Assembly (NCBI GenBank): GCA_050290185.1 | Contig: JBNKHE010000009.1 | Location: 32,001-96,000 of the forward strand | DNA: 64,000 nt | Reading direction: 5' to 3' | Origin: Pontiella sp. | Lineage (GTDB): Bacteria; Verrucomicrobiota; Kiritimatiellia; Kiritimatiellales; Pontiellaceae | Shown here: positions 2,534 to 15,499 of the stretch, in pieces | Layout: each line of letters starts with the position of its first letter | How positions within the stretch are numbered: the first letter of the stretch is position 1 | The notes under the pieces: model-generated | The model's database searches: none | Told to the model about the DNA's origin: nothing | Seen by the model: the letters and a program-made list of their open reading frames with translations, nothing else | Position numbers and translations under genes: made by a program

Positions 2534-4681
<2,148 letters not shown>

Positions 4682-4859
4682 TTAACGGGTCTCTGCCGAG
4701 GTGTTGGACATCGTAAAGACGGCTTGCTCTTTAGAGAATTCACGGCCCTCGGATCTGCGTCCTTGCAGGCAGACCAAAAACGTGATGCTAAGGGTCGCCA
4801 GGGCATGCGTGATGGTTGGCTAATATCGGAAAGGATTTTACTACCTGAACGGCACACAC

Positions 4860-5020
4860 AGGAACAAGTACTTCAAGAAAAATATTATTGATAAATAACA
4901 GTATACACAAATACACCTATTATATATAACGATAACAAGTATTAATGTATTTCATTAGGGTTAAGGGGTTTGTGGTTACATTGTTCTTCGTTTTGGAGAT
5001 TGGTGTAAGTTGGGAATATT
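4860..5020. promoter_or_regulatory. Strongly AT-rich tract in the ligA / KAP-LRR divergent intergenic region; probable promoter region
   Basis: Runs such as AAAATATTATTGATAAATAA and TATTATATATAACGATAACAAGTATTAATG contrast with the GC-rich flanks. Confidence 0.45.
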
Positions 5021-5065
5021 CTTGTGAGAAGAGCTTCGGCTCCTAATAGGATAAGGGGAGTGCAT

Positions 5066-7090
5066 ATGCATGGCCTTTGCATGCCGGAATTTACAATCTT
5101 GGCGGATCACAGTTTGTCTGGCGATCTGGTTGGAAATGAGGAAGTGGACTATTTTGACTTCGGGAATCGACTTGGACCTATTCTTGATGTGTTGAGGCAT
5201 AAAGAAACCAGGATGCCGCTTTCCATGGCCGTTTACGGGGGTGTAGGTACGGGAAAAAGTACGGCATTGAATTGGCTGGCCGGACAGATCGAGTTGTGGA
5301 ATGAAATCCCGGTAGCCGAGCGAGGGGGGCATCCCCTGGTTGTTCCGATTCGCTTCTCGGCCCGCAAATGCCCGACCCCGGCCTTCGTTCCGAAAATGAT
5401 CCTATCAGAGCTGCTCATCCAAAGCCTGCTCTATATGGATGACCAGGTTACTCAGCATCGCATCGATCGTATGAAAGGAATGGCAATTAATTGCTCAAGT
5501 TCGCTTGGAAAAGATTTCCTGAAGAGGCTGGAGTGTCTGGCCCGGCGCTGGGGCGTGTTTGAGACCCTTCGGGCAATCATCACGGATCACTCCTCTTCCG
5601 TCGCGAACGAAGTTGCCTGTTTCGATAGCTGCCATGCGCTGTTGAACGATTCGATATCGCAATATGCCAACGCTGTCCGAATGATCGTGTTCATCGATGA
5701 TCTGGATCATGTTGCGCCCGATGTGATGATGGCCGTGTTTGAGGCTATCGACGTGCATTTGGGCAGTGAGCACGTCGGATTCGTTGCCGCGCTCGACCCG
5801 AATATTGCCAGGATCATGATTAAGAATCATTTTTCCCAGCACGAATTCAGCGAGATGCAATGCCGACATTACCTGAGTAAGATCTTCCATGTTGAATGTG
5901 ATATCGAGCCTACCAATCAACAGATTCATGACTATTACGACGCACAGTATAAACTGCTGGACGGTCGATGCGGTGAGCGCCTGTCCCAATATGTAGGCCC
6001 CGAGCATAAAGCGCATATTGATGCGGCGCTTCTTCATTTGTCGTCGGGCAACCCTAGGAAAATCAAAGTCTTGCTAAACAGTGCATTGATGAAAGGGTCT
6101 GCCGGGGTGCGGTCTGCAAGATCAGATGAAGGTTTGGATGGTGCTGAATCCTTATTGTTTGTTCAGAATATACAGGCATATCTGCTCCAGCGCTGGCTCT
6201 CCTTTTTTTCGGTAGGGGGAGGTGCTATCCATCGCGAGGATGTGATGAATTGGTTTGAGTTCCTGTCGTCCGAGGCGCAATCCCCCTCGGCAGACTTTAA
6301 TTGGGTGCAGAAGCAGGAAAGCGTGGATGAAAAATTCCGGAATGTGCCATCGGGGATGGGATTTCATATGATTCATGAATGGGTCTGGAATTTGTTGAAA
6401 ATCCCCTTTTCAAAAACCATCGCGAGCCTCTGCTCCGACGACGGTTTGATTGTGGAGCCTGTTCCGGAGGATTCGCCTATGCCCATGAGCGAAGGACTGA
6501 AAACGCTCTCAAGCGGATTCGTGGATTGCCTTGCCGCCGCCTTGGAAAAGGCAGCACCCGAACTGTCGGATGAAGATGCCTTGAAGGTGACGGATCTCGT
6601 CCTGACCGGACACCGGTTTACGGAACAGGATACGGCATTTTTGAGCAAACTGGAAAATCTTCGCCGCCTTGATTTACACAACAGCTCAATAGGGCATCTT
6701 GATCCGTTGGCCGGACTGGGCCAGCTGAAGAGTCTGAATCTGACTTGCACGCCCATTGAGGATATCGATCCGCTTGCCTCGCTTACAGGACTGGAAGTGC
6801 TGGATCTCTCCTTCACTAACATCAAGAACTTATCTCCATTGAAGCAATGCGAGGAACTCTGCGGCCTGGTGTTGTTCGGTTCTGCGGTGGAGGACATTGA
6901 GCCGTTAAGAGGACTGGAAAAACTTGCTCGTCTCAATCTTTCGCGCACCCAAATAACCGATGACCAGATGGATGTGCTTGGATCCCTACCCGCACTAAGT
7001 ACATTGTTCATTCGCGAAACCAAGGTTTCCAGACAACGGGTTGCCGCGCTCAACAAGATCTTCGATTTCAACCTCAAGATTGAACAATAG
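5066..7090 (+). CDS. KAP-family P-loop NTPase with a C-terminal leucine-rich repeat domain
   Basis: Walker A GGVGTGKS at 5237-5260, KAP-type Walker B MIVFIDDLDH at 5681-5710, YLSKIF and GNPRKIK motifs, then about 6-7 LxxLxLxxxxI/LxxLxxL repeats at ~6590-7050. Start uncertain (5024, 5066 or 5081); GGGGAG lies just before 5066. Confidence 0.85.
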   Translation: MHGLCMPEFTILADHSLSGDLVGNEEVDYFDFGNRLGPILDVLRHKETRMPLSMAVYGGVGTGKSTALNWLAGQIELWNEIPVAERGGHPLVVPIRFSARKCPTPAFVPKMILSELLIQSLLYMDDQVTQHRIDRMKGMAINCSSSLGKDFLKRLECLARRWGVFETLRAIITDHSSSVANEVACFDSCHALLNDSISQYANAVRMIVFIDDLDHVAPDVMMAVFEAIDVHLGSEHVGFVAALDPNIARIMIKNHFSQHEFSEMQCRHYLSKIFHVECDIEPTNQQIHDYYDAQYKLLDGRCGERLSQYVGPEHKAHIDAALLHLSSGNPRKIKVLLNSALMKGSAGVRSARSDEGLDGAESLLFVQNIQAYLLQRWLSFFSVGGGAIHREDVMNWFEFLSSEAQSPSADFNWVQKQESVDEKFRNVPSGMGFHMIHEWVWNLLKIPFSKTIASLCSDDGLIVEPVPEDSPMPMSEGLKTLSSGFVDCLAAALEKAAPELSDEDALKVTDLVLTGHRFTEQDTAFLSKLENLRRLDLHNSSIGHLDPLAGLGQLKSLNLTCTPIEDIDPLASLTGLEVLDLSFTNIKNLSPLKQCEELCGLVLFGSAVEDIEPLRGLEKLARLNLSRTQITDDQMDVLGSLPALSTLFIRETKVSRQRVAALNKIFDFNLKIEQ

Positions 7091-11059: not shown

Positions 11060-12031
11060 TCAGGGTTGTTCGAAATAGACAACCCCTTGGCGGGGGCAGA
11101 CAGTTACAATATATTTTTCGAGCATTCGGCGTCCGGCGCGGGGGAATAGGTCCTGTGCGGCCAGCACTTCAGTGGGTACTTTGATAAATACCACTTCCCC
11201 CAGTTCAACCTGCTCTGTGACCGGTTCGCGAGTATCGCCGCGCGCAAAGGCATAGTCGCCGGCAAAGTCGAGTACGATGGGCACAGGCTTTCCGAAAACA
11301 GAGCCCTGTACGGCGAGGCAGTCCCGGCATACGGTGGAGACTCCGACCTGACCCATCAACCGCTTCTCGTCGGGGGTATAGGGTGTGCTGGAGGAAAAAC
11401 GGACGATCCCGTCGCGCAGGTTGAACTGGATGTATTGGAACTGCCGCAGATTGTCGTACCCGAGTACCGCATCCACTCGCGGGACCGTACTGCTGTACAC
11501 CACCGGTTTCATTGTTCCTTTGGCCATGCGAATATAGAAGGGGGTATTGTTCAGGGTTAGATCATCAATCTGGAGGAGGGGAATGATTCCCGCAAAGGCA
11601 TTGGCGCCTTCGGTACTGGCGGTGCCGAGATAGGTAACGACCTGGCCTTTATATTTGAGGAACGTGAGGGCATTCTTTGCCGCACAGGAATACTGCATCC
11701 ATGACGCATTGGAGGCGGTATCCAACAGCACGGTCATGCGTTTGCGGCGCGATTCTCCTTGCAGTTCTATGATCGGCAAGCCACCGGGCTTGAAGGTCCG
11801 GGAGGCCGACTGGTTGGCTTCGAGCAATGTGGCTCCGAAATAGGGCATGCCGTTGCCATAGGGAAACGAAAGCGAGTATCCGAGTTCCTCCAGCGGACGG
11901 GCTTTGGCCACCAATGCGTGTTGTTCCCGGTTGCCCAGAAACGATTCGTATTCCGTGCGGTCGCCGGTGGAGGTGCACCCTGCGGCCAATGCCGTTAACA
12001 GTAGGATTGTAGACGTTGGAATCAACTTCAT
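11060..12031 (-). CDS. Lipoprotein with a two-lobed aspartyl-protease-like (retropepsin-like) fold and degenerate motifs
   Basis: Signal peptide with lipobox LAAGC; VLLDTAS and VLDFAG resemble D-T/S-G motifs; AVLGYDNL resembles the hhG motif. Confidence 0.6.
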   Translation of the reverse strand: MKLIPTSTILLLTALAAGCTSTGDRTEYESFLGNREQHALVAKARPLEELGYSLSFPYGNGMPYFGATLLEANQSASRTFKPGGLPIIELQGESRRKRMTVLLDTASNASWMQYSCAAKNALTFLKYKGQVVTYLGTASTEGANAFAGIIPLLQIDDLTLNNTPFYIRMAKGTMKPVVYSSTVPRVDAVLGYDNLRQFQYIQFNLRDGIVRFSSSTPYTPDEKRLMGQVGVSTVCRDCLAVQGSVFGKPVPIVLDFAGDYAFARGDTREPVTEQVELGEVVFIKVPTEVLAAQDLFPRAGRRMLEKYIVTVCPRQGVVYFEQP

Positions 12032-12280
12032 GGTGTTTTCCCCTATTTTATATGATAAGCGATCATCATGGGTTTTCTGGGTTGCTTGGTCAAATCTTGA
12101 ATAAGCTCCATGGCTCATCAAATATTTCTGTAGGGTCGGTTTAATTAAAAGAAAAGCCGACGGAATGCCGTTTTCTTTCTTTTTTTGGATGGATGTCTGC
12201 GCATATATGATAATTTCCGGCGTTTCCAAATGAATTTATGCATATGAAATAATGCCCGATAGGGATGGAGAGATCGTGTT

Positions 12281-15200
12281 ATGAAGATCCGGACTGTTGT
12301 TTTTGGTATGGTGTATGTGCTGTCGGTTGTCGCTGGACGGGCTGACTACCTGATCGACTTTGGTAATTATGTTGAAAACATAGTCACCGATACGAGTTAC
12401 GGGGCGAACGATGTGTTCATCGGAATCAATACCTCCACGAACGGGTTAAGGGTCTATAGTGGAAAAAGCGCGTTGGCCAACGCCTTGGTTGTGGGATATG
12501 CTTCAGGTTCCACAGGAAATTTTGTGGATCTTCGAGACGATTCCAGTCTGTTTTTGTCGGACCGGCTGTGTGTGGGGTACGATTCTTCCGGCAATACGCT
12601 GACCACTTCCGATGGAGCCTCGGTGCGTTCGAGTGGTTCGGGATTCGTCGGGTTCTTTGAACAGGCCGAAAACAACACCGTGGAGATCCGGGGGGCTGAG
12701 TCATCCTGGTTTCTGGGGGGGGATCTGTATGTTGGTTTGAACGGCAATGATAATAATCTCCGGATCGCCGACGGCGCTTTGCTTGTTACGGGCGGCTCGC
12801 TCATTATTGGGGACGGAAAAACAGCGGACAACAACACGATGACGGTTTCGAACGCCGGTTCATATGTCGAATACGACGTGTTTGTCGGCAGCGTAGGCGA
12901 AGGAAACCAGTTGCGTCTCGTGGATGGATCCACGCTCGATTCATTAAACGGTTTCGTGGGAGTAACCAACCTTGCAGACGACAACCTGATCTATGTTTCG
13001 GGGGGATCCACATGGACAAACTATGGCGGTCTTTACATCGGCAACGTGGATAATACGGGGAACGGTATTACAGTCACCAATGGGGGGGGCATTGTCACAT
13101 ATGATGGGCTGCAGATCGATGGAACCGGCAACACATTCAATCTGGAGCGCGGGGGATCGTTGACGGTGCAGACTAATTTTGATGCATCCATTACCGGATT
13201 CAATTTTAACGAAGGCGGCGCGCTGTATGTCGGAGGGATGCTTACTGGGGCCACGAGCGAAATTGAGGGTGAACGCACTTTGGGCTTGGTTGGTTTCAAT
13301 GGATGGTGGAATCAGGCTGGCAGCAACGTCGTTGTAGGCGGAGCGTCTTCCGGTAATACACTTGATGTCTCGGATGGGGGATGGGTCGATGCGGGTGCGG
13401 TGTCCGTGGGATCAGGCAATGCCGTAACCGGTAATACCGTATCCGTAACGGGCGACGGCGCCGTACTGAACATCGAAGGATCGCTGGCCGTGGGAACGGT
13501 CTCCAATGCGGACAATCTGGTTGAGGTCTCATCCGGTGGAACGATTCTGCTGGGCGGCAATCTGATTATGGGCGGATCAAACAATACCTTCAATCTCGGC
13601 GACGGCGGATGGTTGGTGGCCAGCAACGGCTTAGATGCTTCGGCTCAGGGATTCAATTTCCTTGCCGGCGGTACGCTGGAATCGATGGGAACACTCTCCG
13701 GTCTGGATGGCTCCATCGAAGATCGCCGGGCGGTTCTGCTGTCCGGCAGCAATGCCGTGTGGAATCTGGGAACAAACCTGCTCCAGGTGGGTTCTGCTTC
13801 ATCTTCTAATGTATTGTATGTGACCGATGGGGCCTATCTGGCCAGCGGAGACGCAATAATTGGGAGCACGGGCGCAACCGGAAGCTGGGTCTATGTGGCC
13901 GGTCCGGGATCGGTCTGGACCAACGCCGGCGACCTGTCCATGGAGGGATACTACAATGACCTGCTCATTGAAAATGGCGGGTATGTGGCGGTGGGCCAAT
14001 CGCTCTCCGTTAAGAATGAGTCCGCTATTTCATTTGCTTCCGGCGGGCATGCGACAGCATCCAACTACTTTCAGGATGCTACTTCTATTTTTGCATTCGA
14101 AAACATTACCAACTCGACCGCCGTTCCGGCGTTGCTTGTGGTGGACGATGCGGCCGAATTCGAGGGAGGAGCGACGCTGGAATATACCGGAACTATCAGT
14201 GGTCTGGAGCGGGGAATCACATTCACCAACCATCTGGTTAATGCGGGAACACTGGTTGTGGATGGAGTAACGAACGCTACGGGAACCGATCTGGATGCCT
14301 TGAACATTGCCGGCCTTGGATCGTTGCTCTCCATAGATCTGGTTTCGGAAAACGACGATTTGATTGCCCTCATCACCCGGCTGCGGTTGGCTGATAGCGC
14401 CGGCTTTTCCGCCGGCACCGACATGGCTGGTGTGAGCGAGGAAATTGACCAGATGGCTGATGGCGGCGACCCGCGCTCAGAAAACATGCTGAACACGCTT
14501 TCGCAACTTAATGCAGCCAAGCAGAACTCCGAGTTGTCCCAGCTCTACGATCGTCATGCACCTTCCTATGCCCATGCAAAGGGTATGATTGATGGCTTCA
14601 AGCAGGTTCGCCAGCGCGGAGTCGTTCCCGGTGCCATGCTTCCCCGTGGCGCGTTTGGACCTCATTTCTACAGTACGCAAGTTCAGGGATGGATCAAGGG
14701 ATACGGTAGCTGGGGGCAGCGCGACGGTGCTTCCGCTTTCCCGGGCTATGATCAATCCACCTATGGCGTTGCTTTGGGTGTGGACAAGAGCTATGGCGAC
14801 CTGCTGGCCGGTGTGGCGGGCGGCATGGCCACCACGGACATCAGCCAGGATGACGGTGATAGTAGCGATGCTCAGACGGGATACGGTCTCGTCTATGCCT
14901 CCTGGGGCACACTATCCTGGTTTGGCGACCTGAACTTTGGATATGGCCGCAGCTTGATCAATGACCGTTCGGGTACTTCCTTTAAGACCACCGCCGAATA
15001 CAATGCCGACCAGCTCGGTTTCTATGCAGGCGGCGGCAAGGAGATGGTGTTCATGGAAGACCGGCTCTTCATTACGCCTTCGGCGGCCCTGTCGGGTTCA
15101 TACTATATGCAGGAAAGCTATGTTGAAAGTTCAACAATGGCCCTGCCTCGGCGGGTTGATGAATTCGACTACCTCAGCCTTCAATCTGAAGTGGGGCTCA

Positions 15201-15499
15201 AGGCCAGCTATACGCATGCGCTGAAGCGGTCGGTTCTCGAGCCGGAGGGACATGTCAACTGGATGCACGAGTTCAATGCCGACGAGGAACGCATTGGCTA
15301 TTCGCTTGTCGGAGGCACGGGAAGCTACAGCTTTGGCGTGGCGGCCCCGGTTGAGGATATCTACGAAGTCGGATTGGGACTGGGCTGGTGGCTGCACGGT
15401 CAGCAGAACGTCTATCAGTGGTCGGTTGGGTTGGATGGCCGCTTTGGTGATGGCTATACGGAAACCACCGCCAGCCTGCGCTTACTCAGCCAGTTCTAA
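12281..15499 (+). CDS. Autotransporter (type Va) with a Gly/Asn-rich beta-helical passenger
   Basis: Signal peptide, repeated L.VG..G..N.L.h.DG units, a C-terminal barrel of roughly 270 aa (GWIKGYG..., W.HEF) ending in Phe. Confidence 0.88.
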   Translation: MKIRTVVFGMVYVLSVVAGRADYLIDFGNYVENIVTDTSYGANDVFIGINTSTNGLRVYSGKSALANALVVGYASGSTGNFVDLRDDSSLFLSDRLCVGYDSSGNTLTTSDGASVRSSGSGFVGFFEQAENNTVEIRGAESSWFLGGDLYVGLNGNDNNLRIADGALLVTGGSLIIGDGKTADNNTMTVSNAGSYVEYDVFVGSVGEGNQLRLVDGSTLDSLNGFVGVTNLADDNLIYVSGGSTWTNYGGLYIGNVDNTGNGITVTNGGGIVTYDGLQIDGTGNTFNLERGGSLTVQTNFDASITGFNFNEGGALYVGGMLTGATSEIEGERTLGLVGFNGWWNQAGSNVVVGGASSGNTLDVSDGGWVDAGAVSVGSGNAVTGNTVSVTGDGAVLNIEGSLAVGTVSNADNLVEVSSGGTILLGGNLIMGGSNNTFNLGDGGWLVASNGLDASAQGFNFLAGGTLESMGTLSGLDGSIEDRRAVLLSGSNAVWNLGTNLLQVGSASSSNVLYVTDGAYLASGDAIIGSTGATGSWVYVAGPGSVWTNAGDLSMEGYYNDLLIENGGYVAVGQSLSVKNESAISFASGGHATASNYFQDATSIFAFENITNSTAVPALLVVDDAAEFEGGATLEYTGTISGLERGITFTNHLVNAGTLVVDGVTNATGTDLDALNIAGLGSLLSIDLVSENDDLIALITRLRLADSAGFSAGTDMAGVSEEIDQMADGGDPRSENMLNTLSQLNAAKQNSELSQLYDRHAPSYAHAKGMIDGFKQVRQRGVVPGAMLPRGAFGPHFYSTQVQGWIKGYGSWGQRDGASAFPGYDQSTYGVALGVDKSYGDLLAGVAGGMATTDISQDDGDSSDAQTGYGLVYASWGTLSWFGDLNFGYGRSLINDRSGTSFKTTAEYNADQLGFYAGGGKEMVFMEDRLFITPSAALSGSYYMQESYVESSTMALPRRVDEFDYLSLQSEVGLKASYTHALKRSVLEPEGHVNWMHEFNADEERIGYSLVGGTGSYSFGVAAPVEDIYEVGLGLGWWLHGQQNVYQWSVGLDGRFGDGYTETTASLRLLSQF

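What the first reader, a model, noticed from the sequence alone, without database searches (positions are those of the whole stretch)
5024..7090. Orphan KAP NTPase fused to leucine-rich repeats: an NLR-like sensor architecture
Seen: an intact Walker A (GGVGTGKS) and KAP-type motifs (hhhhDDLD with His where Arg is usual, YLSKI, GNPR.IK). There is no obvious TM hairpin between the Walker motifs. A helical linker then leads to about 6-7 internalin-like 22-24-residue LRRs. There is no signal peptide and no N-terminal effector domain. The gene stands alone between ligA and the USPase gene, behind a very AT-rich leader, and looks less GC-rich than its neighbours (by eye). Established: KAP NTPases are relatives of STAND (NACHT/NB-ARC) NTPases and include the phage-exclusion protein PifA; NTPase-plus-LRR is the layout of eukaryotic NLRs, whereas bacterial STAND sensors mostly use TPR or WD40 repeats. 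Inference: this may be a cytoplasmic pattern-recognition or anti-phage switch that arrived at an NLR-like design on a KAP scaffold and signals to an effector in trans or acts by itself. It is the best candidate here for an undescribed system.
Basis: partly seen in the sequence, partly recalled or inferred. Interest (0 to 1): 0.78.

Follow-up and report, generated by a model that had tools for sequence, protein, structure and literature searches.

The report
Frozen KAP ATPase-LRR receptor offshoot
This gene encodes an ATPase joined to a leucine-rich binding surface. It belongs to an apparently undescribed family of bacterial proteins built like immune receptors, but in this branch the binding surface has stopped varying and the ATPase has partly decayed, so it probably grips one fixed partner.

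Summary
The gene is real: 674 aa from ATG 5066 (not GTG 5024), a soluble KAP NTPase plus seven LRRs. It is not an orphan.

It belongs to a family of stand-alone, single-copy KAP-LRR genes (101 representatives at E<1e-30; the named loci are mostly PVC bacteria). Typical members look like diversifying sensors: 3-16 repeats, a homogenised framework and a hypervariable concave face (pN 0.51 vs pS 0.45). Some carry FGE, TIR or dead DnaB tails instead.

This gene sits in a small, long-branch clade (named members: Kiritimatiellales) that behaves the opposite way. Its LRR layout is fixed and its concave face is the most conserved part. The hallmark KAP residues W60, W100, R215 and R335 are lost, although this copy keeps the Walker A/B, sensor-1 and sensor-2 residues. 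It occurs in 4 of 53 genus genomes, here in a swappable slot between ligA and the uridylyltransferase gene, with no partner gene and no defence island.

Best reading: a non-lethal binder of one conserved protein, derived from an NLR-like sensor. No function is shown. No paper on KAP-LRR was found, but this scan noted the architecture before on other DNA.

The parts
4694..4819 (-). 46-codon 3' stub of a ~520-aa membrane-protein gene; relic of earlier cargo in the ligA-USP slot
   Evidence: tblastn of the intact G423 gene: 70% identity, residues 476-521, E 5e-10, only hit in G000; DNA 79% to G423
4858..4960 (.). AT-rich leader (GC 0.22) with one sigma-70-like site at 4895-4923, which is at chance level
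   Evidence: (1 found, 0.8 expected)
5053..5060 (+). Shine-Dalgarno AAGGGGAG, 5 nt before ATG 5066
   Evidence: sequence
5066..7090 (+). KAP NTPase-helical domain-LRR gene, 674 aa (P0002)
5081..6100 (+). Soluble KAP NTPase domain (about aa 6-345), AAA+-like, with a helical insert where membrane KAPs have TM helices
   Evidence: Pfam 53 bits; pLDDT 92.6, pTM 0.89; best fold match RdrA 8fnt_B Z 15.8, rmsd 7.2, 331 aligned
5237..5260 (+). Walker A G58-S65 (GGVGTGKS); K64 and S65 intact, the family Trp60 replaced by Val
   Evidence: W in 140 of 141 typical members, 0 of 16 in this clade
5696..5710 (+). Walker B D211-D212 intact; DDLDR arginine replaced by His215
   Evidence: R in 144 of 145 typical members, 1 of 17 in this clade
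5795..5797 (+). D244, sensor-1-like residue, kept
   Evidence: assigned by motif spacing to RdrA D253, inferred
5870..5884 (+). YLSKI motif, K272 kept
6050..6070 (+). NPRKIKV: sensor-2-like R331 kept, R335 lost
   Evidence: R335 in 145 of 145 typical members, 2 of 16 in this clade
6101..6415 (+). Helical domain (about aa 346-450) with clade-conserved aromatic residues
6416..6580 (+). Flexible linker and helical N-cap of the LRR (about aa 451-505)
   Evidence: pLDDT <50 at 458-472
6581..7087 (+). Seven internalin/Roco-type LRRs plus capping strand; concave face strongly conserved among orthologues

Best explanation
The protein is a derived, specificity-frozen offshoot of a bacterial family of KAP-NTPase/LRR sensors. 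SHOWN: (1) typical members have full KAP motifs and a hypervariable LRR face; (2) this clade has a fixed seven-repeat LRR whose concave face is its most conserved part; (3) the clade has lost a set of otherwise near-invariant KAP residues, and catalytic residues drift in some members; (4) the gene is single-copy, has no partner and is exchanged at a variable slot. INFERRED: the LRR face binds one conserved protein, either a conserved invader protein or a host protein that it guards. The KAP domain still binds nucleotide and acts as a conformational lock or scaffold. The lost residues are taken to form the AAA+ ring interface and a basic amphipathic helix, so the protein probably no longer assembles the ATP-burning, membrane-acting oligomer that is the likely output of typical members. 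It would then protect by binding and blocking, without killing the cell. It would be an accessory conflict gene, gained and lost between lineages.
For: The clade (19 tips) is monophyletic, support 1.0, stem 0.99. Of 88 positions at least 85% conserved in 145 typical members, the clade keeps 31 at that level, keeps 36 in fewer than half of members, and this protein keeps 49. Drift within the clade: Walker A K to R in 3 of 16; second Walker B acid lost in 5 of 17. LRR face entropy is 1.14 vs 1.96 bits at other variable positions, p 2e-4. Against G422 the face is 88% identical and the NTPase 55%, with face pN 0.08 and saturated pS. Control: clade pairs at 25-55% NTPase identity share about 0.50 of face residues; typical pairs share 0.20-0.26, even at more than 65% NTPase identity. 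The insert helix has moment 0.29 and net charge +0.1 in the clade vs 0.40 and +2.1 in typical members. Present in 4 of 53 genus genomes. The slot holds different cargo in close kin, and the gene tree disagrees with the USP tree. A Tmn D276A/R279A mutant and EF_KAP Walker B mutants lose defence (passages); mapping those residues to DDLDR is my inference.
Against: This copy keeps every AAA+ catalytic residue named for RdrA (G63, K64, S65, D211, D212, D244, R331) and K272, so it may still hydrolyse ATP. Placing the lost residues at a ring interface rests on AAA+ topology from my own knowledge, not on a model. A conserved LRR face could instead be an intramolecular autoinhibitory contact. No ligand, expression or phenotype is known. 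There is no defence-island link, and no family member was found in viral contigs, phage records or plasmid records. The trees are single-gene FastTree trees, and USP itself could have recombined.
Confidence: 0.45

Rival explanations
1. It is still an active NLR-like anti-phage switch. The fixed LRR recognises a conserved phage protein, and the KAP domain oligomerises and acts as its own effector by draining ATP or damaging the membrane, like PifA or Tmn.
For: The catalytic core is intact in this copy. Single-gene KAP proteins with varied C-termini defend against phage and need Walker B (PMC13552941 passages). Tmn senses a phage protein with a repeat arm of conserved architecture (section read). 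The gene is patchy and swappable.
Against: W60, W100, R215, K229, Y231 and R335 are lost across the clade, and Walker residues are lost in several members. The amphipathic helix is weakened. There is no effector domain and no conserved neighbour.
Confidence: 0.25
2. It is a domesticated host regulator. The sensor was captured early in Kiritimatiellales and now binds a housekeeping protein as a nucleotide-dependent adaptor, unrelated to defence.
For: Purifying selection is strongest on the binding face. The same position upstream of USP is held in three genomes with 43-62% identical proteins. The neighbours are housekeeping genes.
Against: It was not found in 49 of 53 genus genomes searched, nor in 21 of 22 high-quality ones. 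It lies at other sites in G005, G058 and L147. The gene tree is discordant with the USP tree.
Confidence: 0.25
3. It is a decaying relic of a once-active sensor with no present function.
For: Long branches and loss of many conserved residues; frequent absence in kin.
Against: Reading frames are open in all copies examined. pN is far below pS in every folded region, lowest on the LRR face. The clade has its own conserved positions.
Confidence: 0.05

Closest known systems
Single-gene KAP NTPase anti-phage proteins (EF_KAP and relatives, PMC13552941; PifA)
   Same: One gene; N-terminal KAP NTPase with a large C-terminal region and no N-terminal effector. PifA also lacks TM helices.
   Different: The C-terminus here is an LRR solenoid; that paper has no LRR mention. 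EF_KAP has TM helices. This clade has lost hallmark KAP residues.
Stand-alone KAP-NTPase+FGS counter-invader proteins (Kaur et al. 2021, PMC8195603, figure 2 source data)
   Same: KAP in place of STAND, with a C-terminal antigen-receptor-type domain, often stand-alone. Four members of this family carry FGE/FGS tails.
   Different: That file lists no LRR fusion (0 occurrences of LRR). The LRR form dominates this family.
RdrA of RADAR (PDB 8fnt)
   Same: Best structural match (Z 15.8, rmsd 7.2, 331 aligned); same Walker A/B, sensor-1 and sensor-2 set and a helical insert after Walker A.
   Different: 13% identity; no RdrB neighbour; LRR tail; oligomer unknown.
Bacterial NACHT-LRR (bNACHT16) and animal/plant NLRs
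   Same: NTPase, helical domain and C-terminal LRR in that order; in typical members the face is hypervariable.
   Different: KAP rather than NACHT or NB-ARC; no D[GAS]hDE signature; no N-terminal effector.
Bacterial Roco/AP-GTPase LRR conflict proteins (Chlorobium Roco, 5il7)
   Same: Closest solved LRR by sequence (E 2.6e-38); described as rapidly evolving LRRs in conflict systems.
   Different: In those the LRR is N-terminal and the switch is a Roc-COR GTPase.
QatA of qatABCD
   Same: KAP domain; nearest named defence model.
   Different: 51 bits vs cut-off 600; no qatB/C neighbours.

Membership tests
KAP NTPase (PF07693) | Pfam gathering score | tested here: met
   53 bits vs 20; the typical members scanned score 91-125
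KAP NTPase (PF07693) | Walker A GxxGxGK[ST] and Walker B hhhhDD | tested here: met
   G58-S65 and D211-D212
KAP NTPase (PF07693) | Trp in GxWGxGK (feature taken from alignments; the 2004 defining paper was not held) | tested here: not met
   Val60; W in 140 of 141 typical members and 85 of 86 more distant KAPs
KAP NTPase (PF07693) | Arg of DDLDR | tested here: not met
   His215; R in 144 of 145 typical members. The 93 of 93 in distant KAPs is partly circular, because many of those loci were found with a DDLDRC pattern
KAP NTPase (PF07693) | YLxK and NPR motifs | tested here: met
   Y269-K272 and N329-R331; the following R335 is lost
KAP NTPase (PF07693) | TM hairpin in the NTPase (optional; PifA lacks TM helices) | tested here: not met
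   Highest hydropathy 1.33; 5 of 179 domains reach 1.9
KAP NTPase (PF07693) | ATP hydrolysis and oligomer formation | not testable with these tools
   Needs biochemistry
STAND/NACHT NLR | NACHT profile and D[GAS]hDE Walker B signature | tested here: not met
   13.6 bits vs 26.7; the motif is DDLDH; signature
STAND/NACHT NLR | C-terminal superstructure-forming repeats | tested here: met
   Seven LRRs
STAND/NACHT NLR | N-terminal effector or adaptor domain | tested here: not met
   The NTPase begins within about 30 residues of the start, here and in the aligned homologues
STAND/NACHT NLR | Winged-helix domain after the NTPase | tested here: inconclusive
   A helical domain follows; NLR chains appear only at Z about 11 over the NTPase core; the helical part was not folded alone
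STAND/NACHT NLR | Ligand-triggered anti-phage activity | not testable with these tools
   Needs phage challenge
QatA / qatABCD | NCBIfam cut-off and qatBCD operon | tested here: not met
   51.3 vs 600; neighbours are ligA and the uridylyltransferase gene
RADAR RdrA | Adjacent RdrB deaminase | tested here: not met
   No such neighbour here or among 115 neighbour ORFs scanned with PADLOC
Roco (LRR-Roc-COR) | Roc GTPase and COR domain | tested here: not met
   Matches to Roco cover only LRR residues 536-670

The most novel reading that the evidence does not exclude
Bacteria evolved NLR-like receptors independently on the KAP scaffold. These are single-copy, effector-less proteins whose LRR face is diversified by repeat shuffling, whose tail can be swapped for a lectin fold, a TIR domain or a catalytically dead DnaB 'integrated decoy', and whose ATPase ring with its amphipathic helix is itself the executioner. 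This gene would show the end of that path: a receptor locked onto one conserved target that has shed its killing output.
Probability: 0.3. Interest if true: 0.82.

Novelty: new variant of a known kind. Interest (0 to 1): 0.58.

Why it matters
Prokaryotic NLR-like proteins are said typically not to display LRRs (Dyrka et al., passage), and KAP anti-phage proteins have C-termini of unknown role. A KAP-LRR family with a selection signature on the binding face gives testable sensors on a non-STAND motor and poses a clear question: how does an effector-less NTPase-LRR act? The frozen clade is a natural loss-of-function control. The residues it lost list the candidate oligomer and output surfaces, and its conserved face should make its ligand easy to pull down.

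Tried and rejected
- Homodimer prediction of a typical member (P0027 1-430, two copies, ATP, Mg): no answer, score 0.00, not evidence either way.
- Expression: no RNA holder listed; the laid contigs only confirm the assembly.
- Partner gene: no shared neighbour family in 21 typical loci or among clade loci.
- Defence island: of 115 neighbour ORFs scanned with PADLOC and 51 with Pfam, most hits are housekeeping look-alikes. Plain conflict genes appear only at L029 (Doc-type toxin-antitoxin, Cas9) and G058 (Fic); TatD lies beside the gene at L015 and L026. Gene calls were crude.
- Paralogue expansion: one family copy in each of 23 of 23 genomes and no KAP or LRR paralogue in G000 by tblastn.
- Mobile carriage: only distant KAPs in viral contigs (15 loci, best E 1e-13), plasmids (138 records, best-ranked rows 24-28% identity) and phages (4 records).
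- Insertion scars or RNA in the leader: no repeats at 4550-5100, no Rfam match, promoter match at chance level. The AT-rich leader is not shared: other clade leaders have GC 0.43-0.57.
- The conserved 'non-coding' DNA by ligA is a gene stub, not an RNA. The first alignment of it was on the wrong strand.
- The ESM Atlas gave only generic KAP clusters, at 0.81 or lower.
- The full-length fold search was swamped by LRR hits.
- An IQ-TREE run timed out and FastTree was used instead.
- Pseudogene and TM-anchored readings were rejected.

Full report
OBSERVATION. The ORF is open from 5024 to 7090. The Shine-Dalgarno sequence at 5053-5060, the 674-aa database protein and the homologues' N-termini place the start at ATG 5066; residue numbers below count from there. 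Pfam gives KAP_NTPase 53 bits (cut-off 20), LRR_4 and LRR_8 above cut-off, and NACHT 13.6 bits (cut-off 26.7). The full-length model has mean pLDDT 82.7 and eight solenoid strands, i.e. seven LRRs and a cap. The N-terminal 455 residues model at pLDDT 92.6 and pTM 0.89. Their best match among 48,161 chains is RADAR RdrA (Z 15.8, rmsd 7.2, 331 aligned), followed by Orc1/Cdc6 at Z about 14. No TM-like stretch is present. The leader is among the most AT-rich in the genome (15 of 34,405 100-mers), and GC3 is in the lowest tenth. The closest named homologues are Kiritimatiellales proteins, and I infer the host's order from that.

THE FAMILY. A search with the non-LRR part found 876 representatives at E<1e-3, 207 at 1e-10 and 101 at 1e-30; I analysed the 150 listed plus fetched loci. 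Twenty-one of 80 genome loci matched at E 2e-25 or better, the rest at 4e-13 or weaker. Of 146 typical members, 123 have tails of at least 120 aa and 100 have three or more LRRs by a strict pattern, with 3 to 16 repeats. Two duplicates remained in this set. I scanned 24 proteins, chosen mostly because my LRR model missed them: 15 had LRRs, 4 FGE-sulfatase, 2 TIR_2, 2 DnaB_C and 1 nothing known. The DnaB tails lack an intact Walker A (compare the real DnaB in L012), which suggests decoys (inference). Every locus is stand-alone, with no shared neighbour family across 21 loci. Neighbours are mostly housekeeping genes, and there is one family copy in each of 23 of 23 genomes.

TYPICAL MEMBERS DIVERSIFY. 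In 64 proteins with 22-residue repeats, identity between repeats of one protein is 0.11-0.24 at concave-face positions x2, x4, x6 and x7, and 0.31-0.70 at the other non-consensus positions. At DNA level, 12 of 15 loci had enough repeats. With x1 counted as face, face pN exceeded non-face pN in 12 of 12 and exceeded face pS in 8 of 12. Pooled values were pN 0.51 and pS 0.45 for the face, and pN 0.18 and pS 0.37 for the rest. These are uncorrected counts on non-independent pairs, so they show relaxed-to-positive selection, not a formal test. Between proteins, face identity stays at 0.20-0.26 and repeat number differs by 3-5, whatever the NTPase identity. The Chlorobium Roco LRR shows a similar framework-versus-face pattern by eye, so the pattern is not unique to this family.

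THIS GENE'S CLADE IS FROZEN. Nineteen tips (17 distinct) form a clade with support 1.0 on a long stem; its exact place inside the family is poorly supported. Full-length members share one LRR layout. Face entropy is 1.14 bits vs 1.96 at other variable LRR positions (p 2e-4), and the LRR is more conserved (43%) than the NTPase (37%). Against G422 the face is 88% identical (pN 0.08) and the NTPase 55%. Against the other orthologues with DNA, the face is 58-67% identical and the rest of the LRR 39-44%; pS is saturated throughout. Of 88 positions at least 85% conserved in typical members, the clade keeps 31 at that level and 36 in under half of its members. Lost are W60 (140/141 vs 0/16), W100 (144/144 vs 0/16), P181, N187, E190, R215 (144/145 vs 1/17), E226, K229, Y231 and R335 (145/145 vs 2/16). 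Against a simple 'dead enzyme' reading, this copy keeps G63, K64, S65, D211, D212, D244, K272 and R331, which match the catalytic set named for RdrA (mapped by motif spacing). Other clade members have K64R (3 of 16) or lack D212 (5 of 17), so hydrolysis is not strictly selected in the clade. The basic amphipathic helix in the insert is weakened: moment 0.29, net charge +0.1, against 0.40 and +2.1 (that typical set held a few duplicates). About 20 of the typical sequences were found with a DDLDRC pattern, which slightly inflates that one count.

DISTRIBUTION. The gene was found in 4 of 53 genus genomes and 1 of 22 high-quality ones. In a class-wide draw, 20 of 401 genomes matched, but only 3 strongly. 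Of 30 USP loci with 1.5-kb flanks, three have the gene directly upstream (G000, G422, G029) and two have ligA directly adjacent (G035, G151). G423 holds a membrane protein, a methyltransferase-like gene and a TetR-like gene between ligA and USP (names by eye). G000 keeps a 46-codon stub of that membrane gene at 4694-4819, so its slot changed content. The gene tree pairs G000 with the G422-like protein (0.998), whereas the USP tree puts G000 nearer G029 (0.956), and a protein from another family nests inside the clade. This points to old residence, frequent loss and exchange within the order. Both trees are single-gene.

MECHANISM. Shown: the architecture, opposite selection regimes on the LRR face, motif loss, and stand-alone, patchy, swappable status. 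Inferred: typical members sense variable invader proteins and act through the KAP module itself, as PifA-like and Tmn-like proteins do. This clade binds one conserved protein and has probably given up ring assembly and membrane action, because by AAA+ topology (my own knowledge) the lost residues sit beside the P-loop, after strand 2 and on the helix after Walker B, where neighbouring subunits meet. I put 0.45 on a non-lethal binder or guard with a conflict role, 0.25 on a still-active killing sensor, 0.25 on a host regulator and 0.05 on a relic.

LITERATURE. Searches: 'KAP NTPase' + 'leucine-rich repeat' found 0 papers. 'KAP family P-loop' + 'LRR' found one ciliary-disease paper (listing only). 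'KAP ATPase' + 'LRR' found two works, neither showing this fusion in the passages read. Broader searches (listings) showed none either. What I read: passages of PMC13552941, PMC9994260, 10.1101/2022.07.19.500537, 10.1101/2020.01.06.895854, 10.1101/2023.09.22.558884, PMC8195603 and PMC7159879 (its two KAP mentions were not displayed). For the Tmn preprint I read passages and part 1 of section 6. Supplements: PMC8195603 files list KAP-NTPase+FGS but no KAP+LRR in file 1, and file 13 was not searched; the two held files of PMC7159879 have no KAP. The 2004 KAP paper was not held, bioRxiv supplements were not seen, and most subscription journals are outside the library, so a prior listing of KAP+LRR cannot be excluded. 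Two earlier notes of this scan describe KAP-LRR genes in other genomes; they are unchecked and are not support.

VERDICT. This is a real, selected gene and a new variant of a known kind (KAP conflict NTPase with a repeat sensor). The strongest new result is the contrast between a diversifying family and this frozen, partly degenerate clade. Function is untested. Interest 0.58.

Noticed in passing
window 4694-4819 (-): 3' stub of a membrane-protein gene that is intact in G423 and G282. The ligA-USP interval is a variable cargo slot across the genus.
   Followed up: yes
proteins P0032, P0037: Typical KAP domain fused to a DnaB C-terminal domain with a broken Walker A; a possible integrated decoy of the host helicase.
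   Followed up: partly
proteins P0118, P0119: Same KAP family with a C-terminal TIR_2 domain instead of LRRs; an effector-type tail.
   Followed up: partly
protein P0085: Family member with a C-terminal tail that matches no Pfam family.
   Followed up: no
L023:4532-7003 and L024:7920-10195: The KAP part and the LRR part lie in two adjacent ORFs; frameshift, assembly error or natural split not resolved.
   Followed up: no
L029:6844-14398: Family gene followed by a Doc/MazE-type toxin-antitoxin pair, a Clp-type ATPase and Cas9; the only locus with a defence-like neighbourhood.
   Followed up: partly
L015:10240-11028 and L026:7079-7876: TatD genes directly beside the KAP-LRR gene in two Verrucomicrobia; echoes QatA/QatD but may be chance.
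   Followed up: no
window 11060-12229 (-): Probable lipoprotein with a weak retropepsin-like aspartyl protease match (Pfam 22.3 bits, cut-off 24.3).
   Followed up: no
window 12281-15499 (+): 1072-aa protein with a glycine-rich repeated passenger and an autotransporter-like C-terminus (by eye), behind another low-GC leader.
   Followed up: no
proteins P0134, P0156, P0023: Clade members that have deleted most of the helical insert between the Walker motifs, showing that the insert is dispensable in this clade.
   Followed up: partly
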